A stretch of 64,000 nt of DNA, from the NCBI RefSeq assembly GCF_009914755.1, contig NC_060948.1; one strand, 5' to 3'. Each line of letters begins with the position of its first letter. The stretch's first letter is position 1. The translations under genes were made by a program, and so were the position numbers. Of the stretch, positions 27,961 through 59,449 are shown piece after piece. The stretch is from the human T2T-CHM13v2.0 reference genome, Homo sapiens. Below the pieces are notes generated by a model. It worked only from the letters and a program-made list of their open reading frames with translations. It ran no database searches and was not told the origin of the DNA.

Positions 27961-28697
27961 AATATCAGAGTAAGCCACAAAAGTCATGTCCTCTACATCA
28001 TTAATATAATTTAGAGGTGGACAATAAAAAAGAAAATTAATGGAGAAATAAAAGCAGAAATTTATAAAACATGTATAAACAAATGAGTCCATATTACTCA
28101 ACTTTATATGGGTAAAAATGGAAGTAAAGTCACAATATCAGGCATTGAAATTATTCTGTATTCTGTTACTTGGTGTAAGGTGATTTGCCACAATCCAAGA
28201 GTCTATGAAGTAAGTTTGTATGAGATAGGATGGAAGGAAAGGAGAATTTGAACTATCTCAGGGATATTTTTTAATGATTGAAAGCTATGCTATAAAATCT
28301 CTTAGGAAAAACATGCTATCAATTGCCTGATGGAGTAATGCATATCTCATATCCTTCTCATCTCTATTCCTTCAGATCACAGTAGCTTTGGCAGCAATAT
28401 CGAGATGTTGTCAGTTAAGCTTCTAGATCCCTCCATCTGCCACCATCAACATAGTCACATGACTAGAAATAATAATTTATGTATCTAGAATCAGCCACAA
28501 GTAGACTGCTGAGTACTTACTACATAAAGGCAAAGCTAGCATTTTTGGGTTGGGGGGGCAGGTGTAGAAACACGTTAACAGTTCTGTAAATACACATAAA
28601 GATATGCATTTTCCTTAATCACAAATAAATAAACCAGAAGAATTTTCAGTGATTTAAAAAAATTAAGAAATAGGGAACTTATTTAAAAAGCCTTTGA

Positions 28698-28965
28698 AGC
28701 CACAGTGGCTCTTGCCTGTTATCTCAGTATTTTGGGAAACTGAGACAGGGCCTCACTTGAGGCCAGGAATTCCAGAGGAGGCTGGCAAATAGAGTGAGAT
28801 GCTGTCTCTAGAAAAAATAAATAAAATTTAAAAATTAGCTGCTTGTTTTGCAGTGTGCCTACAGCCCTAGCTACTTGGGAGGCTGAGGTGAAAGAATTGT
28901 TTGAACCAGGGAGTTTGATGTTGCTGTAACTTATGATCTTGTCACTTCACCCCAGCCTGTCCAGA
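28698..28965 (+). mobile_element. Alu (AluJ-like), lacking its 3' end and A-tail
   Basis: Dimeric Alu that stops at 'cccagcctgtccagag' and runs directly into the PWTQ-repeat region. Confidence 0.85.
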
Positions 28966-31900
28966 GGATTATCTAATCATACTGTGGACTATTGCCAAAT
29001 CTGCAGCAGTGAAACTCTGGACACATTCTGTGTCTGGTAAAGTCACACTTTGGAACCAAGAAGAATTTCCAGCCTTACTTCCCTTGACAGAGCCTATCGC
29101 TAAGACAGTCACAACATAGATCCAGGATAGAATTCCAACAATAAATCCCTGAGCAAAAACTATAGCTGAAACTGCCATACCATGGATCCTCGATGAAATG
29201 CCACCAACAAATCCCTGGAAAAAATACAGCCTGAATATTTAGCAGTAAATACCTGGCACTATCTGAATTTAACCCAGTCTCATTGTGGATCTTGGCTTAT
29301 TTGTCAGTAGGAAACTACTCTACACAGTTCCATACTGAAACAATAACACTGTGAACCCACGTTGAGTCTCCAGCAATACTTTCCTGGAAACAGTTGGGAA
29401 CTGATATAATCACATTAGGGACCCATGCTGAATCACTAGTGATGAATTCATGGATATATTCTTCTATATGTGATACGGTCACAACACCTATCCAGGCTGA
29501 ATCAGTTATTAAATCACTGGACATACTCTGAAACTGATATACTCACAACATGGATTCTGGCTGAAACTCTAGGATTAAGTCCCTGGGCACGTGATATGTT
29601 CCTACCATGGACCCAGGCTGAAAGTCCAGCAGTATCTTGGATTCAACCATGGATTCTGGGTAGAATGCCAGCAATGAATCCCTGGAGAGAGGCTACAGCT
29701 GACATTGTCCTACCCTGGAACCAGGCTGAATTTATGTAGAAGGAAATGCCTGGACACCGTCTGAAACTTATACAATCACAAAGAGGATCCTGAGTGATTC
29801 TCCAGCACTAAATTCATGGACATGGGCAATAGCTGATGCAGACCAGCTGTGGACCAAACCTGAATTTCCAGCAGTAAATCCCTGGACAAAGTCTGTAGTT
29901 GATAGTACTATACCATGGATACAGGATGAGTCTCCAGCAATAAATCCATGGACACAGTACGTATCTTATATGATCAAACCATGAGCCCAAAATGACTCTT
30001 CAGCAGTAAATCTCTGTACACTACCTGAATCTGATACCATTATCCTGTGGACACAAGCTGAGTCTCCAACAGTAAATCCGTTCACAGAGGCTGGAACTTC
30101 CACAGTCACACCATGGGCCCAGGCTGTATCTCCAGCAGTAATTCCACGGACACAGCCTATACTTTCCACAGTCGTACCTTGGACCCAGGTTGAATGTCCA
30201 TCAGTAAATACCTGGAGAACGTCCATAGCTGATGCCATCACACTGTGGATAGGGGCTGAATTAACCGCAGGATATCAATGGATACTGCCTTGGGCTGCTA
30301 CTGTCACACTGTGGTCACAGTCTGAATCTCCAGCAGGAAATCTTTGGACACAGTCTGTGTATGACACAGACACACCATGGCCTCAGGCTGAATCTCCAGC
30401 AGTAGTTTGCTGGACAGAACATGTAGCTGATACACACCGTGGACTCAGTTTGAATTTTTAACAGTAAAGCCTTGGATCCAATCTGTATCTGATACGCTCA
30501 TACCATGGACCCAGGCTGAGTCTTCAGCACTAAAGCATTTGACACAGGCAATAGCTTATACAATCAAGCTGTGGAACCAAGTCAAATCACCTGCCATAAA
30601 TCTCTGGAAACAATATGAAACGAATATGTTCACATGGTGTACTGAGGTTGAATCTCCAAAAGTAAAGGAGGGGACACATCCTATACCTGCTACAGTTATA
30701 CCACTGAACCAAGCTGAATCTGTAGGAGTAAATCCCTCCACAAAGCTTGAAACAGAAATACTCATACTGTGGACCCAGGCTCATTCTAAAATCAACAATC
30801 TCTGTACATATACTCTACTTGATAGAGTGAAACCATTGGCTAAGGATGTTTGTGTAGCAGTAAACCCATGGAGACAGTCTAAAACTGAAATAGTCACATC
30901 ATGGGCCCAGGATCTGTTGCCAGCAATAAATCCCTTAACAGTGGCTGTACCTGGTATAGTCACACTGCAGTACATGGCTGTATCTCTAGTAATAATTCCC
31001 AGGAGAGAGGCTCTAGCTGATACAGTCATAATATGGACACAGACAAAATCACCAGCAATCAGTTTCTGGTTGTAACCTCTGCCTGGCACAGTCAAACTAT
31101 GGACCCAAGCAAAATATACACCCGTTATCACTTGGAACCAGGCTGAATTTCCAGCTAGAAATCCCATGATACAATCTTAGCCTCCAATTGTAAAGATCTG
31201 AACAGAGTCTGAATCTCTAGCCCCAAGTCCTCTGTTATAGGTGGAGACTGATACAGTCATACCATGGACCCAGACTGAATCTTTGGCAGTAAATCCCTGG
31301 ACAAAGCCTGTTGCTGATACACTCACACTGTGTACACAGCCTGTAACTCCATCATTAATCGTTTTTTCACAAACTTTTCATGATACACTGAAAGCATGGG
31401 CTCAAACTGAATGCTTACCAGTAAATACCTGGACAGAGGCTGTAGCTTCCAAAATTATACCCTGGACCCAGGCTGAATTTCCAGCAGTAAATCCTTAGAC
31501 AGAGCCTTTTGCTCATACGGTAACAATTTTGGCACAGGCTGTATCTTCAACAGTAAAGATCTGGCCACAGCCTTCATTTAATACAACCAACTTATGTATT
31601 TAATACAACCAATCTGAATCTGCAGCATTAATTACATGGATACAGCCTGCATCTGATACATACATAGGATTGATCCAATCTGAATCTTCACCAGTGAATT
31701 CCTGGAGACTGCCTATATCTAATATATTATCATTGTGGACCAAGCCTGTATCTCTAGCAGTCAATCTGTGAATAGAGGCAATAGCTTCCATAGTCATACC
31801 TTGGACCAAAGCTTTACTTTTAGAAACAAAACCCTGGACACATCCTGTATCTGATATACTTATGCTGTGGACCCAGGTTGAATCTTCTGCAGCGATTACC

Positions 31901-32295
31901 TCCACACAGGCAGTATCTGACACAATTATACTGTGGCTGCATGCTGCAGGCCTCCAGTAGGAATTACCTGGATACAGACTGATCTGATCTTCTTATATCT
32001 TCTTATATCATGAAACAATGATGAATCTCAACAGAAAATTCAGGGGCATGGGCTGTAGTTTCCACCGTGTTACCATGCAACCAGTTATCCCTTCAGCAGG
32101 AAAAACCTGGACATCTACCTGTGTCAGAATCAATCACCCCGCAGACCCAGTCTGAGTCTCCAGTAATGAACACATGGACAGAGGCTGCAGCTTCCACACT
32201 CTCAAAGTGGACTCATGATGATTTTCCAGATGCAAATGCTTATACACAGAGCGAAATGGGCACATACTGGACAATGGGTAAAACTGAAGCTAAGA

Positions 32296-32671
<376 letters not shown>

Positions 32672-33974
32672 TCAACCTGATACTCATGACCTGTGATTCA
32701 TGAAGAAAATCAAGCATCTATTTTATGGACACATCATGAAATTGAAAATATCAATGAATGGACGTTGTCTGAATTTGGAACACTTATATCTTGGACAGTG
32801 CTTGTACCACAAGCAGCAGAACCATGGCCCCAGCCTGAAGCTCTGCTTAGCACACCTTTGTTTAAAACTGGATCAGAAGAAAATGAAACCTTGGGCTCAA
32901 CCAGAATTTCAAACACTGAGCACATTTACTCCATTTGGACCTGGTAAACTAGAATCCTGGGCCAAACATAATACTACTACATTGAAAACAAGGATCTAAT
33001 CCGAAACTGATGTCTTCTACCCGTGCACCCAATCTGAAGTAGGTACAATGAGATCCCAGACCATTTCTGAAGAAGATACAGTAAAACTATGGAACTGGAC
33101 TGAAGCAGGCACAATCCACCCCTGGACTCAACCTAAAACTAATACAATCAGACTTTTGACTCATGTGAATTTCAAGCAGTCAGACCCTGGACCCTGTCCT
33201 TGTCTGATACACTGTTGTATCAGGCTGAAATGCAAGCTGCAAAATGCTTGACCATGCCTGACATTAATACTGTGAGTTCTTGGTTTCAGACTCAAAACAA
33301 TGTAAGAATAAATGTTACTCAACCTCATTCTCGAGCAGGTACTACCTGGATGCAGCCAGAATGGCAAATAATCCACCCATGGAACCAATCTGAAAAGAAT
33401 GCAGTCAGACCCTGGACCCAGTCTGAAGGTGATGTTCTGCAACCTTGGATCTATGCTGAAAGCAATACAGTCAGACTCTGGGCCCATTCTGAAACTGATA
33501 AAATAAAACAATATACTGAGCCTGAATCTCAAGCAATTAGGATGTGGCCTGAAGAGGATATGTTCGCACTTTGGTCCCCAACACAAAACGATGCAGTTTG
33601 GCCATGGACCCAAGTGGAATCACAAATGACCCACTCCTGGACCCAGAATCAACTTAGTATAAATTACCCTTGGACTCAGCATGTACCTGCTGCAATCAGA
33701 CCATGGACTTACTCTGAAATTCAACCCTGCACCCACCCTGAAGCCAATACAGTGATAAGATACTGGTTCCAGACTCAAATGAGTTCATTAAATCCTGGGA
33801 CCAACCTGAAACTGAAGTATTCCAAATTTGGACTGTAAGCCAAGTAATAAAACCCCAAAACTTCATTGAAATTGATACAGTCACATCTTGCTTACAGACT
33901 CAGTGTGATACAATTAGACCCTAGGTTCATCCTGAAAGTCAGCCACTCTCTCCTTGGCCCCACACTGAAGCTGG

Positions 33975-34438
33975 TGTCAGGCCTCTGAGCCCAAGCTAAG
34001 CCATCATATCCCTTGTGACCTGCACGTGTACATCCAGATGGCCTGTAGCAACTGAAGATCTACAAAAGAAGTGAAAATAGCCTTAACTGATGACATTCCA
34101 CCATTGTGAGTTGTTTCTGCCCCACTCTAACTGATCAATGTAATTTGTAATCTCCCCCACCCTTAAGAAGGTTCTTTATAATCTCCCTCACCCTTAAGAA
34201 GGTTCTTTGTTATTCTCCCCACCCTTGAGAATGTACTTTGTGAGATCCACCCCCTGTCCCCAAAACATTGCTCTTAACTCCACTGCCTATCCCAAAACAT
34301 ATAAGAACCAATGATAATCCCACCACCCTTTGCTGACTCTCTTTTTGGACTCAGCCTGCCTGCCACCAGCTGAAATAAACAGCCATGTTGCTCACACAAA
34401 GCCTGTTTGGGGGTCTCTTCACACGGACACGTGAGACA
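33975..34438 (+). mobile_element. Solo LTR7 (HERV-H) inserted in the giant exon
   Basis: Starts 'tgtcaggcctctgagcccaagctaagccatc', has the internal 'cccttaagaaggttcttt' repeats and AATAAA, and ends 'cacacggacacgtgagaca'. Flanks gctgg/gtttg look like a decayed 5-bp TSD. Confidence 0.93.
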
Positions 34439-36341
34439 GTTTGTATATTTCAGCCCTGGACTCAGCAAAGAGTTACTACAAATCGTTCGTGGACCCACCC
34501 TGAAACCCAAGCAGAGAGACTCTGGATCAAGCAGGAAACTGAAGATAGAGACAGATCTTCGTTTTACATTCAAATGAATAAAGGCAGACCATGGGTTTAT
34601 TTGAAATATCAAATAGTCGGCGCCTGGATCCAGCCTGAACTTGATGTAATTCACTCTTTTATCCAGTCTGAAACCTTCCTATTAAGATTCTGGCCCAAGG
34701 TTCTATCTCCAGTAGTCAAACCATGGATCTTGCTTAAAGGAAGAACACTCATATCTTGGATACTGCCTGTAACCCGAGCAGACACTGGATCCAGTCTGAA
34801 GTTCATCTTATTGAATCCTTCGGTGTTTTTAAAGCCGGCAAAGTGAGAACCTGGATCCAGCCTGAAACAGAAATACTAAGACCCAGAACCCTATAAAGCT
34901 GTTATAATTGATCATTTTCTCCTCCTGAAATTGAGCCGAACAGAGAAACACTATTAACGAGTCATTTTGGCTGCTTGTCCAAACGTGTACCCTTTTTGCC
35001 AGTAAAAACTGTTTATTCCCCAGATCGGTATTTTATAGCTTTGTCAACTGAGATAACTGCCACACAAAGCCAATATAAAATCAATTCTATCCAACCAAGC
35101 CAGTTTACAAGCATTTGGCTTCCTGGAAGAGTTGTTTACCAGCTCTATGGCAGGAAATTAAAAATTATCAAGACAAAAGAAAGCCCTCATGTCCCAAGTA
35201 CCTCTCTTATCTCTCTTTATGCTTTTTCTTTATTCATTCTTGTTCTCTTCCATCTGTATGTACACTGACCCCTTCTTGTTCAGTCTTTTCTTCTTGTACT
35301 TTCCTTTCATTCTGTATTTTCCCATCTTGCTCAGGTATTTCTCCTCTGGTCTCCTCTCCTATTCTGCTATCCATAGGCTCTTTTGCTAATCCTCCTCAGA
35401 ATATATTTCCCTCAGCATTTACTAAAGAGTCAATTCTTTCTCATTCTTTTTCATCCTTGCATACTGCTCCAGCCGCATTTTTAACAAAACAACCTCTCCT
35501 GATGCCTGGATCTCAGTCTGGACCCAAGCCTGAACAACAACCTCTTAGGTATTCAGAACTCAGTGTTTCCCTGGGTGAGTGTCAACTAGCTGTGATTTGG
35601 AAAGAAAGTTTCCAGGCTTTCTGGCTCTTCAGGACAGCTGTTATTTCCCATGAAACCACAGGCAGCTTTAGTCGAGTCAGATATTTGAGTTAATGTACTT
35701 GGTATGAAGACTCCTGTTGAACCCTAAAACCAGAGTTTGTAGCAACAGAGGTTATGTTCTCAGACCGTTGCAAAACCAAAATTTAGGTTATTGTGTGAAT
35801 CAGCAGAGATGTGTAAATATTGAGAGAATATTTTTTTTTTTTTTTTGCCAAACAGGATGTTTGAGCTATGTGTTATGAACACAATTCTATTCAGACAGCA
35901 GTATTTTAAAGATAGCCTTACTCCTTAGAAAGGTTTTATTATTTTCACTTGAGGTATATACATATATACACACACTATTGGATAATAGTATAACATCTTG
36001 GATACTAGTATCAGATATAAATAATAATATACTACATATATAAACTATATATACATATATTTATATATAGCATCTATATAGTATATATGTGTATATATAT
36101 AGTATATATGTAATAGTGTGTGTGTATATATATATACGCTTTATTGTTAGAAGGGGAAGTATGAAGATAACCTCTGTACTATATCTAAAATTGTGGGATG
36201 AATAATGTATATTTCTATGTATTTTCTCAGAATTGAAGATAATGAATTTCCAAGCATTTTTCTAAAAGTCTAAATTTAGATGTTAGAAAAGGAAGGGTAG
36301 TAACACTAATCACTCTATACCATGTGTGGGTTCCTCTGCAG

Positions 36342-36662
36342 AGTGTGGATTATGCCCTGGCATTATCCCTGTCTGTCCCAACTGCTGGGAGGCAGAAATT
36401 GGTGAATTCTGTTGGGTGATTTCTGCACAAATGTTTTTCTCCCATTTTTGTGCTGGCTCCATACTACATGAACAGTGGATCATTAGCACAGCTAGATGTG
36501 TCAATTTTATGTAAGTCTGAGCAATTCATTTCAAGATTATGATATCATTATAAAGCAAGTAAAACATTGAGACTGTTACTGAATATGTTTCTTTTCTATT
36601 TATTTATTTATTTTTGTTTGTGTGTGTGAGACAGAGATAGGGAAAGAGAGAGAGATAGAGAC

Positions 36663-36709
<47 letters not shown>

Positions 36710-38041
36710 GAGAGAGAGAGACTCTCCCTCTATTGTCCAGGCTAAAATGCAGTGGTGTGACTCACATTAGCCTCAAACTCCCAATATTAAGGGATGCTCC
36801 CACCTCAGCCATCTGAGTACCTGGGACCGCAGGCACACGCTACTGCATCTGGATAATTTTGTTGTTGTTGTTCTTGCTGTTGGTAAGGAAAAATTCTCAT
36901 CATGTTGACCAATTGGTCTCAAATGATCCTTGAAAATAGTTTCTAAAGTACTATTTGCAACTGAGTGCTTACCTGGACTTCATGTGATTCACGTGAACTC
37001 CAGGGTTTTTTCACACTGAAATGTGGAAATAATAAGATTTTTTCCTTGATTTTTTTTTCCCCCAAAAAAATGCAGAAGCCCTGGCTGTGGTCCGAGTGGG
37101 GCTTATTGACCTCCAGGATCCTGCCCAAGCTGAGATTGTAACCTTTGAGCATGCCATGCCCTATTTAGGTCCCAAGGGACCTCTAGGACCTGGGTTGATC
37201 TTCCTGAAGCAACCACTACATTTTCAACCCAGGTTCCTTCCTATACGCCTGGAGCAATGTCTGGAACAAGAGAAAATATACAACTATATGACTGTTGGCT
37301 ATGTAGTTGGTCCCTTATGAGGGGGTGACTAAAGAAGAAGACACTGGAATGAAAGAGAAGCATGTTTAGGAAGAGAATAGTATCCTCTCATGAATAATAA
37401 AAGATTTGTCTTTCCCTTCACCATACTTCTCCCTCTAATGTGGGCTAAAATTTGAAGACAAACACAAACACCTCTTCTCTGTTTTCTATCAGAAAGTCCT
37501 GGAATTGTGCAAAAACGGCACCTGAGCATCCTACAAGTCAGCACTTGTGCCCAATTTTGGCTCAAGCTGAATGAACTCACTTTCTGGGTGGAGGCCAAGA
37601 AAGCCATGTGGATGGCTGACTATCAGGTGACAAATTCATGGGGTATAAATATCAGGGAGAAAGAGGAATATCTTGAAAACCAAAAGTTACTTCTGGCCCT
37701 CCTTTAAAATATTGTTTGATATCTTGCCTCTTGTTTCTTGCAAGGTGACTTGGGAGCACCTTTCGTATGCCATCTACAGCAAGAGGACACTTGGGTGCAA
37801 GTGGGAATCTTGAGTCACTTTGAGGACCATTGCACAAAGCCCTAGGTCTTCAGCCAAGTGCACCCTTTCCTTTTCTGACTCCAGGGAGTGACACAGTCTA
37901 GCTATGCTCCCTGGTACAAGCAAGGGCCCATGACTACCTCTGCTTCTATGTCCCATTCAGTCTCTACCTCTACAAATGCTTCAGCTTTTACCTCCACCCC
38001 TGCTTCTCTTTGGCCACACTTCTCTCTGCCACAGCCTCAGA
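36342..38041 (+). pseudogene. Trypsin-like domain 1 (four exons) with in-frame stops
   Basis: CAGSILHEQWIISTARC; FLPIRL; GDLGAPFVC. In-frame TAG at 37843 and TGA at 37876; frameshift near 37275; acceptors near 37065 and 37743 read AA instead of AG. Confidence 0.85.
36600..36930 (-). mobile_element. Diverged Alu with (GA)n microsatellite (~36645-36720)
   Basis: 'gtccaggctaaaatgcagtggtg...ctcccacctcagcc' and a (GA)n run. Confidence 0.8.
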
Positions 38042-39495
38042 GTAAGGCTCAAAAACTTGGTAGAGGTAATAAAGGAAGAAGAGAATGGAATTAGAAAAGA
38101 AGAGAGGGAAGCAGAGAGGAAAGAAAGCTCTTCCTGTAAAATATATGAGTTTTTTATCTACCAAATCACAGAAATTATTTTTATCGTGGTTTACAAAGGT
38201 ATTTCACACTTGATCTATGATTCAATTTCCATTGTATCCCTGTATGATATAGATTACTGTATAATATAGGTCATGAAACATGATTACTATAGTTATGTTA
38301 ATTGCTTACTCTTATACTAGATAAGTAGAATGGATTGTTCAAGTTCTTATGGCAAAAGATGAATAGGACTAACATTAAGACACACTCTCCTAACACAAAG
38401 TCATTTCTACCACACAGTATCTTACATGTGTAATAGAATTATTTTGAATTGAATATATTTTAAGTTAAAGACATTATGATGTTTGGAAACAGCATAGCAG
38501 TTGGTAAGTAATGTGTTTTAGGTGCTGGTGTACTAGACTGTATTACATTGTGATTATCAGTTTCCTCCTTCCCTTGGCTATCAGAAAACCTATCACAATA
38601 TTAGCAATGGCTATTTCACATTACTGTACTTCCACTTATTTCCTTAGAAACTGAGGGATCTCTTTTGGTGTCATGTACTAAATGTGCACTTAACCACAGC
38701 TATATTATAGCTAACACCTATTGTCATAGCTACAGTGAATAACACATTAAAACACAAAGGAGGCCACAATTATTTGCTCACATTCTGCAAAGTCTGATTC
38801 AAAGACAACTACACTTAAGATCATAGTTATGCTTCTAATTTCATCTATATTTCCTCACCTCTTCTAGAGAGAGCCTATCTTCATCGTTTTTATATCTGTA
38901 ATATGTGCATTAACTGGCATTGCTTCAACTCAGTTTTCTGAGAAACTCTCAAATGTTTTTTAAAATATGAGCTATTTCCTTAACCCCAAACTTGAATGTT
39001 CTATTTAAACTGTCATTCTGATATCACACTAAGATTGTAAGTTCAGGAAGATAAGCTCCCTCCAATTTAGAGACAGGAGCCTTATCTCCAAATTTTTCCT
39101 TGTTTATCTAATATCTCCAAATCAAATAATTTTTTGTTGCCCATCTACTTTGATAACTTTTAAGTAGCTAAAATCATAGCTATGTAAAGGTTGCAATGGG
39201 GAGAAAGCTGGAATGACTCCCAGTACTTTGACTGAAGAAATTTAAGTTAGGACATAAAGAAACTGTGAACTTAGAAAAATAGTAAAAGGAAAACTTTTTT
39301 TTTTTTTTCAGAAAAATGTAAAAACAAAAACAAAGGAAAAACAGAAAAGAGGTAGAAGTTTGTGTTTGCTAGTCATATTTAACAATGCTGACCTGGTTAG
39401 CAGAAATAGGAGGGATCTAAATTTTTTTTTAAATGGTCTACATGTGGCAATTCTATTCAAATTAATTGTGTGAATTTTCCCCTTGGCTTTGGCAG

Positions 39496-42442
<2,947 letters not shown>

Positions 42443-48878: not shown

Positions 48879-49025
<147 letters not shown>

Positions 49026-50866
49026 TAAAGCCATGTGTTTTGTGTGTGTGCGTGTCTCTGTTTGTGTGTATTTTCGTATGTATATTTCAATATGTTATTT
49101 AAAATATGTAGGTTATGTATGTATTTTAAAGTATGTATTTTTCAAAGTTCATTGTATACATACATTAAAACGCCTTGTGATTTGTAAACTCTTATTTTGA
49201 AGTATCTATCTGATATTTGGAAAATTCTCATAGCAGCAGGTGAAGGGTAAGAATCACTTACTGCTTAGAAAGGAAAATGAGGAAAAGTAAATGTGTTATG
49301 GAGTTAGGGAACAAACTGGAATAAAATAGGCTGACTATAGGGGTGACTTAGTATTAAGAATCATAGTAGTGATGTGAAATGCAGTTATTTTTTGGTTTGA
49401 TGTAACTTTCAGATGGTTAGTACCTTGGTGAGTCCATTCTATAAATATAAAATGTTTTTATGTATCTTAGTTCTTTTGATAAAAGGTCGAACCAGTAAGT
49501 CCAGAGATTTTGTGGTCATTATTTTTGAGAATGCTGCAGATGCTAAGAATGCTGCCAGAGATATGAATGGAAAGGTAAGAGTCCCTTATTAATAATACAC
49601 TAATTCTGGTTTTCAGTTAACAGTATTTCTAGGTCTTTTTAGTATAACTAAAGTGTTGAAGATAGTAGAATGCCATATGGACTGAAATGCTTTAGCCATC
49701 GTCTTCTTTGTGCCATACACATGCAAGTGTATTTGGAAGGGTACTGCAATTAACATTACATAAATTAATATATGGTAACTTTTTTTCTATTTTTGTATTT
49801 CAATATGGGTGTAAATAGATTTTCAAAGGTTTCCAAGAGCATTAAAACCTAGAAGGAACCCTCCTCTAAATGAAAGGACTAAGTTAACATTTTTTAAATG
49901 CTATCAGTGGAATTACTTCCAATTCATGGAAATACTTCTATAGCATATACAAACTGTGGATAGACATCTAGACAGACTCACAGGAAGGAAAGATTCTCTC
50001 CCATTTTCTGCAAATATATTCTTGAGAAAGTACATTTAAATAAGACCTTCACATTTAAGGATGTGTTAAGTACTTGAAAATAGAAAACAATATCAGAACA
50101 TTGAAGTTGGACAACAGAAGAAGTAACTGGCATTTTTTGCCCCATCCTTGCTCTTTTCTCCTAAGGATGTTTTTTTTCCTGTCACCAGAGTGATTTATGT
50201 AACATGAATACCTAATTGCTCATTTTCCCAATGTGTTTGAGAACGTGTTTTGATCAAACCAATGGTCTCTTGTCCAATTGAGTCTTAAATCTAGGGATTG
50301 TGTGTTTACTAAAGCTTTAAAATTTTATGTAATTCTATTAACTATTGAATTCCTTTACATTCTAGTCAAGATCATTCCATTCTGGGCCCTTTAGAGCTTT
50401 TCTGCTTTCTAACATTATCCAAATCTGTTTTTCTGCTTTATAACATTATCCAAATCTGTTTTTAGCTCCTGTCACTCTTTATGGTACCCCTAAAATGATT
50501 TTTTGGACTTTTTGACAATTATTCTTTCCTATGTATGTCTCAGAAATAACAATTCATCCTTCAAAAACAACTTCAATTTTCTATTTTCTTCCTCGTTGCA
50601 AATCGTAGATATTTTATACTCACTGTACCATGTATTAATCTATTGATGGTTAAATTGTCTACAGTGCATATTTAAGGCTTCCTAGTTGCTTTTATTTTTG
50701 TTGCATCTAGTAGAGTTGCTGACACATAGCAGAAAGTACATTTTTATTCACTCTTATAAATTAGTATTTTAAGCTGTGGTAGAAACCCAGAGTAAATTTG
50801 TGGTAGTTGTGGAGATAATTTTTACTTACGTATAGTAATCTATGATAATTTCCTTTTCCCCCCTAG

Positions 50867-51208
<342 letters not shown>

Positions 51209-53249
51209 ATGCTATTTCTGAATTACTTCATCTCACATATTTTATTGTGTAAACATAAATATGAAGTTATATGCACATAAATGTTAAGACGGCCAACAAA
51301 GGAGGTTCTTAGAGTTATCAGGGGCAATTAACAGTTTAAGGAATTTTGACTGACTTTGAAACACTGGGAAGGAAGCAGCCATGCGCAAATCTGGGGAAAA
51401 TATTTTGGGCCCAGAAATAACAGCAGAAGTTTCAAGGTAGGAACAACTGGCAATTTGGCTGCAAGAGGTCTTGTAAGGGATTTAAGATCTTCCCCCAAAT
51501 AACAAAAAACATGTAATTTTAAAATAGAGTTATTTATTATCTGAACTGTTTTCAAAAATTACTTTGGCCTATAGAAAAGATCATACTGAAAAATGTTACT
51601 GTGAAATTAATTAGCACATTTAAGCATTTCTGAGAAACAACATGAAGTACTATATTAAGAGTCATTTTTTAGGGGCACGTCTAAGGCAAAATAAGAAATG
51701 AATAAGGCAAGAAACCTTAATGAGATCAAACAAGGATCACATTTACAGAAACGTTTCTAGAGTAAATATAAAATTATAAATCATATGGGGATATTTTACG
51801 TAAGTGTTAGCAGATCAAACAAGAAACAACTCATATGACTAATGTGACTAATCATTTTGAATAAGTAACCTCATTTTTTTAAATGACACAAGTTTCCTTG
51901 GGACACTGAAACTTTTAAATCAGTGATGCGAATACAAAGATGAAGTGGATGATATATTGTAAAAAAAAGACATGCCACATTCTTCCATAGAATGTGTGAT
52001 GGGTTAATCTTTTTTGTTTGAGGTGTTTTTTTTTTTTTAATAATTGAGGAGTTTTCAAGGAATTTGAATAATAGAATTTGTGTTTGATCCCTTAATGGAA
52101 GGCGTGTGTTCAGTAAATGTCTCAAATTTGGTATTGTGAAAGACGTGTTCATTTTAGGAGGAAAAAAATTTGCTTTGGGAGAAAATATCTAGAATTGAAC
52201 TATAGTTGATGTAGAAATGTTTGTAAAATGTGCTTAGGTTTAATCTTGCCAACGTTATTGATAGTACTCTTAATACTTTTAGTCTTTGGATGGAAAAGAA
52301 ATAAAAGTAGAACAAGCAAAGAAACCATCTTTTCCAAGTGGTGGTAGGCGGAGACCACCACCTTCTTCAAGAAACAGAAGCCCTTCAGGAAGTCTGAGAT
52401 CTGCAAGAGGAAGTAGTGGAGGAACAAGACCGTGGCTGCCCTCACATGAAGGACACTTGGGTAATGTTCTAAAATATAAAGATGGAACCATAGGACTGAA
52501 AGAAAATAAGTTTGAAGATATCAAAATTTCCCAATTTTATTTATTTTGGGAAATTTACTCATTGGTAAGAAGTAATTTTCTTATTGATAAGAAAATTAAC
52601 TTATTGATAAGAAGCAAAATTATTTCTAAGTACTAAAGGTGTATTATAAGAATGATTGCACTAATATCTAAAATTTGTTTTAAAATTGTAATAAGTTTGC
52701 ATTGAAATAACACAAATTTCAAACTGAATTGAGTTTATGAATGCTGATTGCCTGTACTCAACAGGTTTTCTGAAGAACTCATTTATATTAACTATACTTC
52801 ATAGAGTTTTCTACTTTGGGGCCCAGAACTTCATATCAGTTGTATTATCAAAATACAATGGAATATTTAAAACTTTCCAACAGGAAAAAAAGTAATTCAG
52901 TACTTAGGATTGATTTTCCAATATTTGTTTTTTTTTGTGTATACATGTGCAAACATGTATGCAAATCTATTGCTTTGTAATTTTCATATGGAGAGTTTGT
53001 ACATTGGCCTGCCATAAAGCATTTTCAATTTAAGAAACGTAGAACTTTAATTTCTAAAAAAAGTCTATGACTCTGGAAAGGACAAAACACCACTGCTTCA
53101 CAGATATGTATGTATCTTTCTTGCTGGAAGGTGAGTCACTGAAAATGGTATTTATGAGTGATTTACACAGTAGAAATGAGGGGTCAATTTCTACATAAAA
53201 AAGAAAAACAAACTATGTATTTAAAAATATATATATATATTGGATGGGG

Positions 53250-53550
53250 GTGGGCGAGGTGGGTCACGCCTGTCATCTCAGCACTTGGGGAGTATGGGGT
53301 GGGTGGACCAGGAGGTCAGGAGTTCCAGACCAGCCTGGCAACCATGGTGCAAACTGTCTGTCCTAAAAATACAAAAAATTAGCTTGGCATGGTGGCACAT
53401 ACTTCTAATCTTAGCTACTCGGGAGGCTGAGGCAGGAGAATCACTGGAACCTGGGAGGGAGAAGCTGCAGTGAGCTGACATAATGCCATTGTACTCCCAC
53501 CTGGGCAATAGGGCAAGAGTCCATCTCAATCAATCAATCAATCAATCAAC
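53250..53550 (+). mobile_element. Alu with (TCAA)n tail
   Basis: Dimeric Alu ending 'ccatctcaatcaatcaatcaatc'. Confidence 0.88.
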
Positions 53551-54957
53551 CTATTGGTTAACATATTATCTATTAACCAACCTTCAAAAATCGATCTTTA
53601 ATTTTGTGTTTTAATGACCAGATGTGTAATTAATTGGAGATGTGTTTTTAAAGTTGAAATTGCAGTGTTTGCTGCATTTTACGATGCATAGCTTCATGGT
53701 AATTTTGTCTCCACTGATCTTGAGGGTGAGATTCAATAATACTCTGCCATGTATGAGAATGTGCGTACTCTAACCTGTAACACCACCTAGTAATTGGCAT
53801 ATATCTACAGATTTGTAGATATATAAATATTTTTATATTATTTAATAAGCAATTCTTAAAGATTATTAAAATTTAGCATAGTCTAATCTGAAAATTAGTG
53901 TTTCACAAGGAAATTGTAAGAATTCTATACTATGTTAACAAATTTTAGAGATAATATATTTTCCTGATGTGTCACCTTTTGATATTGCAAATATTTGAGT
54001 TTCTTTGAATGGAATTTAGTTTATCTTTTTGATATGCTTTGAAAATTTTTCCTCATAATAGAATGATATAAACAGTCATTTATCATTTTTTAATATTTTT
54101 TCTTTATGTATATTATACTTAGATATTTTACTGATAGATTTCTGCTCCCTGTTCACTCCCCATTTTTCCCACATCTCTCTCTCACACCAATATATTATAA
54201 TTCTTGAGTTTCCTTCTAGATTTTCTAAACAGACTTTTATTGCTTGAATTGTACTAATTTCATATAGAAATGTTAATTTTATTAGTTTAGACAAATGTGA
54301 ATTTGTAACATTATAATATGTAGAAAAACAACAAAACTTAGCCATTCAAGAAACAGTGATGCTAGTTAACTAAAATGATTTTGTTTGAAATACAGATGAT
54401 GGTGGATACGCTCTTGATCTCAACACGAGTTCTTCTAGGGGAGCCATTCCAATTAAAAGAGGTCCATCTTCACGAAGTGGAGGTCCTCCTCCTAAAACAT
54501 CTGCTCCTTCTGCTATGGCAAGAAGCAATAGTTGGATGGGAGGCCAAGGTAAATGCTACCTGATAAAAGACCATATTTTTTGTATGACTAAAAATGAGCT
54601 ATTTTAACTGGATTCTTAAATTTAAGTTCATTGAACAAAACAGAAGTGACACATCATTGGGCATAATTACTGATCAATAGCTTTTATTATACTTTCTATC
54701 TCACTAGGTACACTCAGATTTATGTTGAAGAAATACTCGAGCTTCTCACTGCAGTTGAAAGAAGTGATTAGAGTGAGGCCAACATTCCTCTTAATCCTGT
54801 GTTTGCTAGATAATTCCCCTTAATTTTTCTAAAAGTCCCTAGCAGTATTCTTTGATGATAGGCTTCTTCTTCTAATGAATTCTTCCATTTCCTAGGTCCC
54901 CTGGTAGTGGTCCCCTGGCAAGCCAATTGAAAAATTGCTTGTTCAGTTTCTTTATTG

Positions 54958-55240
54958 GGTTGGAGTCTTGCTCTTACCAGGTCAGAGTGCATTGGTGAAA
55001 TGATGGCTTACTACAGCCTCAAAATCCTGGGCTCAAACAATTATCCTGTTTCAGCCTCCTGAGTTGCTGCAACTACAGGCATGCACCACCACACCTAGCT
55101 AATTTTTTTTTCCTGTATTTTTGTAGACAGAGGATGTCACTACATTGTCAAAACTGACATAAAAGCCAGCGGCTCAAGCAGTCCAGCTGTCTCTGCCTTC
55201 CACACTGACTCGCACTGTGAGCTGCTGAGCCTGACCATCC
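54958..55240 (-). mobile_element. Alu (AluJ-like)
   Basis: Diverged antisense Alu. Confidence 0.8.
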
Positions 55241-56699
55241 AGCTTCTGAGACCTCAATAATGTTTATGTGCAAGGCATTCTTACTGCTTCTATGAAGATT
55301 CAAAAGAACTACAAGAGCATTTAGCAGAAAAGGAGTCACTGGGCTTACCTATTATTTAAAAATAAAATCAAGTCTTGAAAGGTAGACATGAAGGAGTCCA
55401 ATATTCTTAAATTAAGTGGATATCATAGAAGTGCAGAGATGTGAAATATAAGGTCATGTAAATCAATAATTAAGATTTTACCGGGATGTTTAAACATTAA
55501 CACAAGATCCTTAGCGTAAGACTGGAAATTATTTGAGGAGAGAATTTAGAACTAAGCAACCTGAGGTGAGCGGTAGGATTGAATAGAAGTAATATTTTTG
55601 AGAAGGAGAATTGTTAAGATTGCAGACAGAACAGAAGAAAGCAAGACAGTAAATAAAAGTTCTTAGCAAAGAAGTTTAGGCAGAACAAATTAAAATTCTT
55701 ACTTAGTCCTCCACCCCAATATGGAGGAAATTGAAAACTGCTGTTTTCAATTTTACATTTCATATGTAGAGTATCGGTGAAATTAGATATTTATTGACTT
55801 CAGCATACATAAGCCAACACATTTCCATTGGAAAATTAGCCAGTGAACATATCATAGGTGAAAGACTGACCTCTAAGGAATAGCACATAAAGAGTATATT
55901 AAAGGAGAACATTTTCTATTTTGAAATAGCAACAATGTCGTAATGACCCCTTTAACAGGATTGCTTATTGCAGTAAAAGTAAATCTTGGCCATCATTAGA
56001 AAGTTTTCACTAGTATATTTCAATTTGTCAACATTTAAGGTAGAGCCAACCACTTAGAGATAAAGAAGACCTTTTATGTAAAAATTTAGCATCCAATCAT
56101 TCAAAGGTAGCATCATTTGTGTGTGTGAGGTGGATTGAACAACATAGGAAAATTTACCTTCTTCAGCTGAGAAGGGACAATGGATGTAAACTTAAAAATC
56201 TGTGAAGAGTTTGGTGCTTTTACATGTCTTCCCTGTATCATTGGTAGTCATCAGTAATTCATATGAAAGGAAAAACAATAACTAACTAGTTATTTACCAT
56301 TACAGATGAACTTTTACCTAAGAATTAATGTCTGTCTTCAGCTCTGTTAGAAGAACTGGCCTTGCAGTAGCCATGGGATTATCCAAAGCCATAAGAAATA
56401 TTCACAGTGTCATGACTTTCTAGTAATTTAGGGAATGAAAAATGGAGTCATAGTGGAGTCATAGAAGAAATAATTTTAAAAAGTTGTTTGAGAGAAGAGA
56501 AAATAGTATTTCGGATTTGCTGTTCTTTCCCTGTTTCATCATTTTAATATTAAAGGTCCCATATCACGTGGAAGAGAGAATTATGGAGGTCCTCCATGCA
56601 GAGAGCCAATCTCTTCCTGGAGAAATGACCGTATGTCACCAAGAGATGATGGTTATGCAATTAAGGAAAGGTAAAGAAAATATTTTTTAGAAGTTGATT

Positions 56700-57500
56700 T
56701 TTTTTGTTATGGTGATGAAATTCACATAATAAAATTAAATATTATAAGGTAAACAGGTGGCATTAAATACATCCTGTGTTGTGCAGCAGCTAACTCCATC
56801 AAGTTCCAAAACATTTTCATGACTACAAACTAAAACTCCAGCTACCAGTTAAGCAGTCCCTTTCATTTTCTTCCTTCCCTCAGCTACTGGCAAACATCAG
56901 TCTTTGCTCTGCCTCTGAACTTACATGTTGTGGGCATTTAATGTTAATGGGCTTATACACTACATGACTTTTTGTATCTGTCTCCTTTCCTTTTGTATCA
57001 TGTCCCGAAGTTTCATTTACATCATAGCACTTAAATCCTTCCACAAGCGGTTAACCCATTATTTTATTTGGGTTGTTTCTACCACAGTATTTCTATGCTC
57101 CAGTATTTGTTTGAGTACACTTATTCAATTCTGGGTGTATATATAAATGGAATTGCTTGGTTCTGTAATAATTATGTTTGTTTTCTTGAGGAAACACCAC
57201 ATGTCTCCATAGCAGCTGCATCATTTTCCCTTCCAACTAGCATTGTATCAAGGTTCCAATTTATCTTCACCCTCTCAAACACTTGCTATTTCCTGCTTTT
57301 TATTGCCATTCTAGTGTGTGTGGGAAGTATGGTATCTCACTTTGGATTTGAAATGCTTTTTCTGAATCACCGATTATGAGTATCTGTTCCATGTGCTTTT
57401 TGGGCATTTGCCTATTTTATTTGGAGAAATATCTGTTTAGATGTTTGGCCTTTTAATTTTGTTTAAGTTGTAAGTTAGTTATGTTTTGGATACTAGAAGT
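56700..57500 (-). mobile_element. Old L1 (L1M-like) 3' fragment in an RBMY intron
   Basis: 'gtgatgaaattcacataat', 'ttccaaaacattttcat', 'tggaattgcttgg', 'gtatggtatctcac', 'ttggagaaatatctgtt'. Confidence 0.7.
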
Positions 57501-59449
57501 TGAAAATTTAATATTTGTTGTTTAAACTTATGCCCACAGAAATCATCCACTTTCCCGAGAATCTAGGGATTATGCTCCACTGTCTAGAGACTATGCATAC
57601 CATGATTATGGTCATTCTAGTTGGGATGAACATTTCTCTAGAGGATATAGGTATTACAACATTTCCTGGACTTGTCAAATAGAATTCTTAAATGGTTCAT
57701 TCTGACATTAAGAATTTTTTTTTTCAATTTAGTGATTGTGATGGCTGTGGTGAGGTGATGTTAGAGATCATTCTGAACGTCCAAGTGGAAGTTCTTATAG
57801 AGATGCATTTCAGAGATAGGGTAAGGGTCCGGGATGGATTTGTAAATTATAGAATTGTGTTTAATAGACCAGATCGTTATTTTAATGAAATTCTAAGGAA
57901 AATTACGAGGGACAAATATAACATGTCTAAATATTGAGTATTCTTAACAGAAGAAAGCATAGGGAATGATATGAAGGTGAGAACTTCAGTTCACGTTCAG
58001 AAAATGTGACTCAACTTTTACTTTAGAATTAAATTTGTTAAGCTTCAAAATAACTTCTCTTACACTTCTTATTAATAAAACCTTCTGATTATTGCAGGCA
58101 TAATTAATATCCTGTCGACAAAGACAGAGGAAAGTAGATATTTCCAAATAGTACTTTAACTTAATCATGCTTTAGTGATAGCAGTAATAATGTTTAAATA
58201 TAGTCCAACATATTATTTTATCAACCCTGCAGGGTCCCCTGCAGGGACCTCTCATGGTGCACCATCTGCAGGAGTGCCTCTGTTGTCTTATGGTGGAAGC
58301 AGCCACCATGATTATAGCAATAAATGAGATAGATATGGCATAAGTCGGGAGAGTTACTCAAGGAGCTGTGGTGATTTTTATTCCCGTGATTGTGGGCACG
58401 TTGACAGAAAAGACCAAAGCAATCTACCTTCTCTGGATAGGGTACACCCTGCTCCTTGTGAAACATGTGGTAGCTCAAGATATTTGTCATCTACAGGAGA
58501 TGGTGGGGAAGGTGGATCTGACAAAAGAGGCTGAAGCAGATATGAAAGCAAGTATTCAAATAATAGTTATTGCATACTAAACCTTGTTTGCAAATCGAAA
58601 ATTGACCTGTTATTTCTGCATTGTTACCTGCGTCTTACTAAAAGAAACATGTATGTTTTGTGGAGAGAGGTAGATACTAACTTCCTCCATGAATTTTTTG
58701 AGGTATTCAAAGGAATTTTATTTCCAATAAATAAAGGGAATTTTATTTCCAAGTAATTTCATACTAGCTAATGCTATTTGAAAACTATCTGTTTAGATGT
58801 AATATCTACATTAAAATTTTCAGAATAAAATTTTACATGTAATGCAAAATGCCTAATGTTTTTGCTCAGCTGCACATGCTTAAAAGCAAATTCAATAAGA
58901 GAGTAAATTGCATTGTTTGTTGAACATTTTCCTTTATTTCTTTGAACATAAATAGATACAAAATTAGGCATATGTTATGTCTCCCTTGCAAGCTGCACAA
59001 GTTTTCTAAATAGGCTGTTTCTCTTTAAAAACTTACAAGCTTACAATGTTTGAGTAGTCTTCAGAAAGACTACAAGACTCTCTGCCTCACCATATGTTTA
59101 TCCTTTAGAGGAATAGTACAGGTCAAAGGAAATAATTAGATGTGGTTGATATTAAAATTTAAGACATCCAGAACATTCTACTTGAAGCATTCTGTGACTG
59201 AAGAGGGATAATGCTAATGAAAACTTTTTTTTACCTAAATGAAAAGTGAACCAGCTAAGTTTCTCAAGTGCATAGCATAATGAAATTAAATTTTCCTAGT
59301 TTAAATGGTGGAAAGTAAGTGTTTGGTCTTGGGAGGTAGTCATGTTATTTTTTTCTTAAAAGTTTTGACAATGGTTGTTGTAAGTCATGGTGTAGTAATA
59401 AGTTGTTACAAATAGGAATAATCTAGAGTGGTTGGAATTTTATCAGTTT

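What the first reader, a model, noticed from the sequence alone, without database searches (positions are those of the whole stretch)
28965..34900. Cryptic 33-bp/66-bp coding repeat with Trp every 11 residues over about 5 kb
Seen: the translation falls into 11-aa units, e.g. PWTQTESLAVN PWTKPVADTLT LCTQPVTPSLI VFSQTFHDTLK AWAQTECLPVN TWTEAVASKII PWTQAEFPAVN. Units alternate between an 'AESPAVN' type and a 'xxDTVI' type, giving a 22-aa higher-order period; after ~32700 the consensus drifts to 'PWTQSE..IR'. The DNA is too diverged to look like a satellite, yet the Trp periodicity persists. Inference: it once encoded a long solenoid or fibrous repeat domain (on the order of 150 units) under protein-level selection.
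Basis: partly seen in the sequence, partly recalled or inferred. Interest (0 to 1): 0.75.

Follow-up and report, generated by a model that had tools for sequence, protein, structure and literature searches.

The report
Decayed giant exon of PRSSLY pseudogene
This stretch is the broken remnant of the huge, repeat-filled exon of PRSSLY, a Y-linked testis protease-like gene that is intact in many mammals but dead in humans; it is real, but the locus is already described in print.

Summary
Window 28965-34900 has strong 33/66-bp periodicity (z 24-30, absent from controls), and one frame reads as 11-residue units with Trp at a fixed position. Tandem Repeats Finder reports no 33- or 66-bp array.

It is not a satellite. 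It is the giant upstream exon of an unannotated PRSSLY pseudogene spanning about 28376-42442 on the + strand. The parts, in order:
- a remnant exon of an N-terminal trypsin-like domain;
- the 5'-truncated Trp-repeat array, interrupted by an Alu and an LTR-like insertion;
- a non-repeat tail;
- eight exon blocks encoding two trypsin-like domains.

These are colinear with a bat protein and with a protein deposited as PRSSLY [Peromyscus eremicus].

The copy is dead: 13 frame changes and 14 stop-bearing units in the array, more stops downstream, and dN/dS near 1 between Y paralogues. Every significant human match is on the Y: four copies that are 99.9% identical, plus at least six older loci.

Prior print: Hughes et al. 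2022 describe human PRSSLY pseudogenes and the giant exon. Li et al. 2013 noted "an array of divergent repeats" in dog DYNG.

Possibly new: the unit (P-W-T-Q-x-E-x-D-T-V-R, 22-residue higher order) recurs in eutherian orders and was not found in 17 non-eutherian homologues. Structure prediction could not be run.

The parts
28376..28512 (+). Remnant exon of the N-terminal trypsin-like domain (d0) of PRSSLY, with one in-frame stop.
   Evidence: tblastn of P0002 residues 50-94: 62% identity, E 1.5e-13, one stop. Platypus d0 residues 169-200 E 8e-4 and Dromiciops d0 E 2e-3 hit the same place. A CAG acceptor and a GT donor flank it, read by eye.
28700..28962 (.). Alu-like element abutting the 5' break of the array. 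About 1.7-2.1 kb of array and the 5' non-repeat part of the giant exon, present in copies B, C, E and F, are missing here.
   Evidence: Sequence read by eye. Homology to the other Y copies starts at window 28971-28977, which lies 1.7-2.1 kb inside their arrays. The family name is not tested.
28965..32289 (+). Trp-repeat array, part 1: 66-bp (22-residue) higher-order units of the type PWTQAESPAVN / PWTQPVADTVT.
   Evidence: Lag 66 identity 0.498, z 31.7. Consensus; unit parse.
32290..32619 (.). Alu insertion inside the array.
   Evidence: Masked stretch in the hub's table. Poly-A 32577-32608. Sequence. The family name is recalled by eye, not tested.
32620..33975 (+). Trp-repeat array, part 2: 33-bp units of the type PWTQSE..(I/V)R. 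This zone is colinear with the bat orthologue.
   Evidence: Lag 33 identity 0.422, z 13.6. Rhinolophus P0049 residues 112-505 align to 32690-33790 at 37% identity over 411 aa, E 1e-70, against 24-26% for off-diagonal matches.
33976..34440 (.). LTR-like insertion (approximate ends) containing a 31-bp tandem repeat.
   Evidence: 31-bp x 3.2 repeat at 34144-34241. Masked 34187-34433 in the hub's table. Loss of periodicity. Observed only; the family is not determined.
34441..34900 (+). Trp-repeat array, part 3: the last units.
   Evidence: Lag 33 identity 0.411, z 7.6. Units. P0007 residues 165-275 align to 34427-34762.
34901..35662 (+). Non-repeat tail of the giant exon, ending ...AVISHETT. It has a frameshift near 35175-35217, and GC stands where the donor GT is expected.
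   Evidence: tblastn of P0007 residues 301-404 and 391-599: 56% and 48% identity. P0001 C-terminus. Sequence.
36342..36511 (+). Exon block: start of trypsin-like domain d1. Reads ...ISTARC, so the catalytic His is absent, as in the whole family.
   Evidence: P0007 residues 557-615, 69% identity. CAG acceptor and GTAAGT donor. Motif comparison.
37066..37325 (+). Exon block of d1 with a frameshift at about 37272.
   Evidence: P0007 residues 616-685 (76%) and 685-702 (89%) lie in different frames. GT donor at 37326.
37493..37608 (+). Exon block of d1. The 3' end is approximate; no clear donor was seen.
   Evidence: Part of the P0007 695-852 match. CAG acceptor at 37490-37492.
37745..38059 (+). 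Exon block: end of d1 (GDLGAP in place of GDSGGP) and the inter-domain segment. Two in-frame stops.
   Evidence: P0007 695-852 match; translation shows TKP*VF and FLF*LQ. GT donor at 38060.
39480..39623 (+). Exon block: start of trypsin-like domain d2 (LTAAHC).
   Evidence: P0007 residues 845-892, 81% identity. GTAAGT donor at 39624.
39988..40239 (+). Exon block of d2.
   Evidence: P0007 residues 893-976, 76% identity.
41499..41618 (+). Exon block of d2 with one in-frame stop.
   Evidence: P0007 residues 979-1015, 60% identity, QKC*AQV. TAG acceptor.
42170..42442 (+). Last exon block: end of d2, a hydrophobic C-terminal tail and the TAG stop.
   Evidence: P0007 residues 1020-1108, 64% identity. 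CAG acceptor and stop at 42440-42442.

Best explanation
The periodic stretch is the 5'-truncated, neutrally decaying giant exon of a PRSSLY pseudogene (protease, serine-like, Y-linked) lying at about 28376-42442 on the + strand.

In mammals with an intact gene this exon encodes a very long linker of 11-residue Trp-containing units, with a 22-residue higher order. The linker sits between an N-terminal trypsin-like domain and two further trypsin-like domains. The first of those two lacks the catalytic His and Ser in every family member examined.

In humans the gene is dead and does nothing as a protein. The 33/66-bp period survives only because the units have not yet drifted far from their consensus (consensus bases still present in about 74-80% of units). 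The copy was carried along when Y amplicons duplicated: four copies remain 99.86-99.99% identical, and at least six older loci are 9-17% diverged.

Shown here: periodicity, gene structure, colinearity with named PRSSLY, disruptions, Y-only distribution, and near-neutral divergence between paralogues.

Inferred: that the linker was extracellular. The platypus homologue starts with a signal-peptide-like segment and family members end in a hydrophobic tail, both read by eye. Also inferred: that copy identity is kept by Y-Y exchange or recent duplication.

Taken from print: testis- and spermatid-specific expression, and the mild or absent mouse knockout phenotype.
For: Relatives of the repeat.
- A profile of 13 window pieces (A1) found 47 proteins at E<=1e-3. 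Six long or medium vertebrate-like proteins carry the same repeat: P0001 E 1e-38 with 28 stretches, P0004 (3058 aa) with 33 stretches, and P0002, P0003, P0007, P0010.
- Their Trp autocorrelation at lag 11 is 8-10 times expectation.

Link to the protease.
- P0007 (Rousettus) continues from the repeat into a non-repeat tail and then Pfam Trypsin (E 1e-41) plus a second trypsin-like domain.
- The window is colinear with P0007 residues 301-1108 in the tail plus eight exon blocks at 48-89% identity, several with canonical splice signals.
- The P0007 protease part is 76% identical to 'TPA_inf: PRSSLY [Peromyscus eremicus]'.
- That named protein aligns colinearly to the window tail and seven downstream tblastn segments at 45-69% identity.

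Architecture.
- The d0 remnant lies upstream.
- The order d0 - array - tail - d1 - d2 is seen at DNA level in copies B, C, E and F.

Disruptions.
- 13 frame changes and 14 of 126 parsed units with stops, 9 of them at the Trp codon.
- One Alu and one LTR-like insertion.
- Stops and frameshifts in the protease exons.
- No stop-free stretch longer than 256 aa in any copy's array.

Distribution in the human genome.
- 43 of 43 DNA matches, 63 of 63 and 112 of 114 protein matches, and 56 of 56 P0007 matches lie on contig C24, which is chrY. The two exceptions have E 0.17 and 0.58.

Print.
- Hughes et al. 2022 (PMC9178871; Background, Results and Discussion read; supplement 3 table). [quoted passage not shown] Most of the ORF lies in one exon in many species. 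There is no X homologue in eutherians.
Against: None is direct. The caveats are:
- The RefSeq table supplied for the window lists no gene here, so the identification rests on homology.
- I did not see the paper's coordinates for its human loci. The human model sequence in its supplement 9 (snippet) looks by eye about 85% like window 28980-29160, so it is probably another copy.
- Most of the array matches orthologues only at the level of the repeat lattice (24-26% identity). Only the 3' zone shows a preferred diagonal.
- P0001 and P0004 carry no names.
- Neither the codon-position test nor dN/dS shows that the array was ever constrained as protein.
Confidence: 0.95

Rival explanations
1. A non-coding tandem repeat (an old minisatellite or satellite, or the internal repeat of a transposon) whose open frame is an accident of a period divisible by three.
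For: The codon-position test shows no excess third-position variability. Two minus-strand frames of the consensus are also open (derived by hand from the consensus; long minus-strand ORFs). There is no Pfam match.
Against: The same repeat sits in open frames of 900-3058 aa in other mammals. It is flanked, colinearly and on the same strand, by the non-repeat tail and the trypsin exons of PRSSLY. The 3' zone aligns on a diagonal with a bat protein at 37% identity over 411 aa. Tandem Repeats Finder reports no array.
Confidence: 0.02
2. The locus still encodes a human protein, either the whole PRSSLY or a shorter Trp-repeat peptide from one of the 150-230 aa open stretches.
For: Stop-free stretches of 158, 214 and 231 aa exist. 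Four near-identical copies are kept. Hughes et al. report low-level transcription. Short ORF-derived entries such as P0005 exist in protein collections.
Against: 13 frame changes, 14 stop-bearing units, two insertions and a truncated 5' end. dN/dS between paralogues is 0.78-1.17 in the array and 0.64-1.00 in the protease exons. Supplement 3 of the paper says 'no ORF in any transcript'. Copy identity is explained by the amplicon, which is identical well beyond this gene.
Confidence: 0.02
3. The transcribed pseudogene has a non-coding role, as a testis lncRNA or a regulatory or structural element of the amplicon. This does not exclude the best explanation.
For: Low-level transcription reported in print. 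Several splice signals are retained.
Against: Divergence between copies looks neutral. The paper's table lists TPM of 0.13-0.23 or less in the human tissues I saw (snippet). Nothing here tests function.
Confidence: 0.05

Closest known systems
PRSSLY (protease, serine-like, Y-linked; mouse, bull, pig, mouse lemur and others; Hughes et al. 2022, PMC9178871)
   Same: Trypsin-like exons colinear with a protein deposited as PRSSLY. A giant single upstream exon. Y-only location with no X or autosomal copy. The same d1 substitutions, TTARC-type and GDLGAP.
   Different: The human copies are pseudogenes, multi-copy (the paper found no evidence of multiple copies in the species it tested without finished assemblies; Methods passage), and this copy is 5'-truncated.
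Dog DYNG (Li et al. 2013, PMC3759724, passage seen). Hughes et al. 2022 state that PRSSLY was initially named DYNG in dog.
   Same: Described as a 3887-aa testis-specific Y protein with a domain of about 1300 residues 'composed of an array of divergent repeats'. This is the same kind of array as here.
   Different: It was then thought to be a de novo gene without relatives. The unit length and Trp periodicity are not in the text I saw. Supplemental Fig. 5 could not be opened. No dog protein containing the array was among my hits; P0051 is only the 609-aa protease part.
PRSS55 and multi-domain 'polyserase' proteases (TMPRSS9, PRSS36, PRSS53)
   Same: Several trypsin-like domains in one chain. 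The paper names PRSS55 as the closest paralogue. Polyserase-2 and 'TMPRSS9-like' proteins are weak hits.
   Different: They are 23-27% identical and have no Trp-repeat linker. Polyserase-2 from Lynx (P0086) shows no lag-11 Trp signal.
Non-eutherian PRSSLY homologues (wallaby X-linked PRSSLX, platypus, echidna, lizards, salamanders)
   Same: Three trypsin-like domains with a long linker between the first and second. The d0 exon remnant of the window aligns to them.
   Different: Their linkers do not match the Trp-unit profile (0 of 17 at E<=0.01). Some carry other repeats: 10-15 residue P/R/T-rich units in dasyurid marsupials and 9-residue S/T/P-rich units in geckos.
Classical 11/22-residue repeats of apolipoproteins, perilipins and synucleins (recalled from general knowledge, not tested)
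   Same: An 11-residue unit with a 22-residue higher order, often starting with Pro.
   Different: No sequence relationship was found (Pfam; solved-structure profile search). A Trp in nearly every unit and a Pro every 11 residues do not fit a long amphipathic helix. This is a resemblance of period only.

Membership tests
PRSSLY gene family | Trypsin-like domains orthologous to those of named PRSSLY proteins | tested here: met
   P0052 'TPA_inf: PRSSLY [Peromyscus eremicus]' aligns colinearly to the window tail plus seven downstream tblastn segments at 45-69% identity. P0007 aligns at 48-89%. Platypus 'Y-linked serine-like protease-like' aligns in six segments.
PRSSLY gene family | Most of the ORF lies in one very large exon upstream of the protease exons | tested here: met
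   Array plus tail run 28965-35662 without recognisable introns, followed by the protease exon blocks. Matches the description in PMC9178871, Results.
PRSSLY gene family | Y-linked in eutherians, with no X-linked or autosomal homologue | tested here: met
   All significant DNA and protein matches in the complete human genome lie on contig C24. The searches score only the best candidates, so weak copies elsewhere are not excluded.
PRSSLY gene family | Intact open reading frame (a functional member) | tested here: not met
   13 frame changes, 14 stop-bearing units and two insertions in the array. Stops and a frameshift in the protease exons. 5' truncation. It is therefore filed as a pseudogene of the family.
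PRSSLY gene family | Testis- or spermatid-specific expression | not testable with these tools
   No expression data are available here. The paper reports low-level transcription of the human pseudogenes.
PRSSLY gene family | Family-typical loss of catalytic His and Ser in domain d1 | tested here: met
   The window reads ISTARC and GDLGAP. All 7 family members checked have GDLGAP or GDVGSP in place of GDSGGP, and no AAHC occurs at d1 in any of them; a His-less T[TA]AxC motif at d1 was found in 6 of 7, while the motif scan found none at d1 in Peromyscus P0052. The alignment to plasma kallikrein shows His57 to Arg and Ser195 to Leu in P0007.
Non-coding satellite or minisatellite DNA | Head-to-tail units similar enough to be called as an array, and no coding orthologue | tested here: not met
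   No 33- or 66-bp array from Tandem Repeats Finder. Coding orthologues exist.
Any curated protein repeat family (Pfam) or solved fold | A significant match of the repeat to a curated model or a solved chain | tested here: not met
   No Pfam match above cut-off for window ORFs or for the repeat part of P0001-P0004 and P0010. Profile A1 against solved structures gave 0 hits at E<=1.

The most novel reading that the evidence does not exclude
The Trp-every-11 array may be an undescribed protein repeat family that arose in the eutherian ancestor. It would have formed inside the linker between the first and second trypsin-like domains of PRSSLY, around the time the gene became Y-limited and testis-specific.

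The same unit (P-W-T-Q-x-E-x-D/N-T-V/I-R/N/T) and the 22-residue higher order persist in primates, rodents, bats and ruminants even though Ka/Ks is about 1. That pattern would mean selection acts on the periodic Trp/Pro/Gln/Glu scaffold, as in a regular extracellular structure on spermatids, rather than on the residues between them.
Probability: 0.3. Interest if true: 0.5.

Novelty: already known. Interest (0 to 1): 0.3.

Why it matters
For the human genome this is housekeeping. A 14-kb multi-copy pseudogene described in print in 2022 is missing from the gene table supplied for this window. Labelling it explains an otherwise puzzling 'coding-looking' repeat in a Y amplicon and in at least ten other Y loci.

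For biology, the modest point of interest is the repeat itself. PRSSLY is the only gene known to have been kept on the eutherian Y but lost from the X, and most of its protein is this unexplained array. A defined unit, a profile that recognises it across orders, and its apparent absence outside eutherians give a concrete handle for asking what the giant exon does. None of this changes the verdict that the human copy is a relic.

Tried and rejected
Searches that found nothing useful:
- Tandem Repeats Finder: no 33/66-bp array.
- Pfam on six window ORFs: nothing above cut-off.
- Word-indexed protein search with the 231-aa ORF, 'longer' setting: no hit. This was a limit of that index, since the full HMMER search later found relatives.
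- Peptide-motif search of papers: one irrelevant hit.
- Profile against solved structures: 0 hits.
- ESM Atlas with P0002 residues 560-913: best scores 0.76, which is noise level, and no model.
- Paper search combining PRSSLY with repeat words at min_terms 2 returned 10,898 papers, and none of the 20 listed held PRSSLY. A stricter search, PRSSLY plus 'repeats', gave 6 papers. Judged from the listing only, none is about the gene's internal repeat.

- Alignment query of the own genome: not accepted. I used single proteins instead.
- The 14-kb DNA search of the genome was swamped by Alu candidates and did not list the identical copies. I fetched and compared them directly instead.
- Holmlund et al. 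2022 is not held.
- Supplements of Li et al. 2013 were closed.

Ideas dropped:
- A relic of the mucin-like exon of ADGRG4 next to RBMX (from memory). Dropped untested once PRSSLY was identified.
- Kinship with apolipoprotein-like 11/22-mer repeats. No sequence support.
- CpG decay (CCG to CCA or CTG) as the sole cause of the Pro/Leu alternation at unit position 1. Intact orthologues also show P/L/S at that position.

Full report
**1.

Over 28965-34900, base identity at lag 66 is 0.426 (z 29.7) and at lag 33 is 0.395 (z 24.3), with harmonics at 99 and 132. Three control stretches show nothing at these lags. In 500 shuffles the maxima were 0.273 and 0.271. Eight other windows of equal size stay at 0.26-0.29.

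The first part (28965-32280) is dominated by the 66-bp period (0.498). The part after the Alu is dominated by the 33-bp period (0.422). Tandem Repeats Finder reports no 33/66-bp array.

A 33-bp profile parses 126 units outside the two insertions, and 79 of 126 have Trp as the second residue. Of the spacings between consecutive units, 88 are exactly 33 bp. The 66-bp consensus reads PWTQAESPAVN PWTQPVADTVT. Units of the '...IR' type take over after about 33100. Without insertions the array is 5126 bp, about 155 unit slots.

**2. What it is**

Pfam, a word-indexed protein search and a literature motif search gave nothing.

A profile of 13 stop-free 44-residue pieces (A1) was run against 1.84 billion representative proteins. 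It found 47 hits at E<=1e-3.
- The best long hits (P0001 2357 aa, P0004 3058 aa, P0002 913 aa, and P0003, P0007, P0010) are built from the same unit.
- They show Trp-Trp spacing of 11, 22 and 33 at 8-10 times expectation.
- Two long bacterial hits (P0011, P0042) are false positives with other periods.

P0007 runs from the repeat into a non-repeat tail and then into two trypsin-like domains (Pfam Trypsin, E 1e-41). One source names it as an uncharacterised protein of Rousettus aegyptiacus. Its protease part is 76% identical to 'TPA_inf: PRSSLY [Peromyscus eremicus]' and 47-54% identical to marsupial and monotreme homologues, the two monotreme ones named 'Y-linked serine-like protease-like'.

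The window is colinear with P0007 residues 301-1108. The tail of the giant exon (34933-35662) is followed by eight exon blocks between 36342 and 42442, at 48-89% identity, several with canonical splice signals. The named Peromyscus PRSSLY aligns to the same blocks at 45-69% identity.

Upstream, 28376-28512 is a remnant of a further, N-terminal trypsin-like domain.

The finding is therefore the giant exon of a PRSSLY pseudogene spanning about 14 kb. The gene table supplied for the window does not list it.

**3. It is dead here**

- The array has 13 frame changes and 14 stop-bearing units, 9 of them TGG changed to a stop at the Trp position.
- It carries an Alu (32290-32619) and an LTR-like insertion (about 33976-34440).
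- The tail and the protease exons carry further frameshifts and stops.
- GC stands at the expected donor of the giant exon.
- Homology to the other Y copies begins only at 28971-28977, next to an Alu-like element. The first 1.7-2.1 kb of the array and the 5' non-repeat part of the exon are therefore missing in this copy.

**4. Copies**

Every significant match in the complete human genome is on the Y.

Four copies (22.79, 23.47 [this window], 25.30 and 26.92 Mb) are 99.86-99.99% identical over the whole 14.2 kb.

Older loci at about 5.97, 6.17, 7.35, 8.55, 10.24 and 22.32 Mb show the same order of parts, and all have stops. Inverted partners lie at 9.96 and 10.15 Mb. They differ from this copy by 8.7-16.5% in the protease region, and none has a stop-free array stretch above 256 aa. 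Fragments lie at 5.92, 7.94, 23.03 and 23.23 Mb.

**5. Was it under protein-level selection?**

Nothing in the human sequence says so.
- Among 37 units, consensus frequency is 0.736, 0.749 and 0.803 at codon positions 1, 2 and 3. The third position is not the most variable.
- Between paralogues, substitutions are spread evenly over codon positions. dN/dS is 1.05, 0.78 and 1.17 in the array and 0.64-1.00 in the protease exons.

This fits Hughes et al. 2022, who report Ka/Ks close to one in the upstream ORF even where the gene is intact. What does argue for some constraint in other species is that frames of 900-3058 codons stay open and the unit motif is the same everywhere. I could not test this at codon level because no orthologue DNA is available here.

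**6. What is in print**

- Hughes et al. 2022 (PMC9178871; Background, Results and Discussion read, term searches of the main text and supplements, supplement 3 read). They describe PRSSLY as ancestral, lost from the eutherian X, testis-specific, and carrying a massive single exon 'with no identifiable domains'. They state that human, chimpanzee and rhesus Y carry transcribed pseudogenes. The words 'tandem' and 'tryptophan' do not occur. In the main text, the 'repeat' hits I saw read 'repeated(ly)', and it has no hits in the supplements.
- Li et al. 2013 (PMC3759724, one passage). Dog DYNG, which Hughes et al. equate with PRSSLY, includes a domain of about 1300 residues 'composed of an array of divergent repeats'. 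Its Supplemental Fig. 5 could not be opened.
- Mouse knockouts are fertile. Hughes et al. saw a mild female-biased sex ratio. Subrini et al. 2025 (PMC7617377, passages) saw no effect, including on sex ratio.

Both the locus and the repeat nature of the exon are therefore already known.

**7. What may be new**

- The unit consensus (P-W-T-Q-[S/P/A]-E-x-[D/N]-T-[V/I]-[R/N/T]) is shared by the human relic and all homologues with the array. Sheep shows the same 22-residue higher order, PWTQAESPAVN TWRETVPFTxP.
- The human-derived profile hits 5 of 5 named eutherian homologues that include a long pre-protease region: sheep 5e-78, Rhinolophus 3e-84, Castor 6e-35, Rousettus 8e-31 and Peromyscus 2e-8.
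- It hits 0 of 3 short eutherian models that hold little more than the protease part (Thomomys, Canis, one unnamed).
- It hits 0 of 17 non-eutherian homologues: 5 marsupial, 2 monotreme, 8 squamate and 2 amphibian.
- Non-eutherian homologues have three trypsin-like domains with a long linker after the first. P0002's N-terminus and the window's upstream exon belong to that first domain. The array is thus an expanded inter-domain linker.
- Other lineages filled the same linker with different repeats.
- Domain d1 lacks the catalytic His and Ser throughout the family.

These points rest on predicted proteins of a limited length range and are leads, not settled facts.

**8. Not done**

**Verdict**

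This is a real, well-observed feature that is correctly read as a former coding repeat. It belongs to a published pseudogene, so interest is low to moderate.

Noticed in passing
window 32290-32619 and about 33976-34440: Two insertions split the array. One is an Alu with a 32-base poly-A. The other is an LTR-like element carrying a 31-bp x 3.2 tandem repeat at 34144-34241. Families were not determined.
   Followed up: partly
window 28700-28977: An Alu-like element sits exactly where homology to the other Y copies begins. This copy lacks the first 1.7-2.1 kb of the array, yet keeps an upstream d0 exon remnant (28376-28512) that I did not find in the fetched parts of the other copies.
   Followed up: partly
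window 48909-58543 (RBMY2BP) and G000:C24 8.565 Mb and other sites: RBMY-family sequence lies about 9 kb downstream of the PRSSLY pseudogene, both here and in the closest older copy (8.55 Mb). Other copies have RBMY-like sequence about 4-8 kb away, upstream and in opposite orientation. Small PRSSLY fragments lie near RBMY copies at 23.03 and 23.23 Mb. The two may have been amplified together.
   Followed up: partly
proteins P0056, P0057 (dasyurid marsupials) and P0065, P0069 (geckos): The same inter-domain linker carries unrelated repeats in other lineages: P/R/T-rich units with periods 10/20/30 and 15/25/40 in marsupials, and 9-residue S/T/P-rich units in geckos. The linker seems prone to independent repeat expansion.
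   Followed up: partly
window 36440-36511 and 37745-37790; proteins P0007, P0048, P0049, P0052, P0055, P0058, P0064: The first of the two downstream trypsin-like domains has no catalytic His or Ser in any family member checked (TTARC-type and GDLGAP). It is a pseudoprotease domain by descent, not by human decay. Domain d2 keeps TAAHC in the four named eutherian homologues checked. A Ser aligns to Ser195 only in the bat protein P0007, in a poorly conserved context.
   Followed up: partly
protein P0111 (3971 aa, unnamed): A very long homologue carries an RNase H Pfam domain together with the trypsin domains. This probably reflects a transposon caught in the gene model.
   Followed up: no
window 36628-36721: A (GA)n microsatellite of about 16 units lies in the intron after the first protease exon block.
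   Followed up: no
window 35663: The position where the giant exon's splice donor is expected reads GC, not GT, in this copy. No AG is seen before the block at 37066.
   Followed up: no
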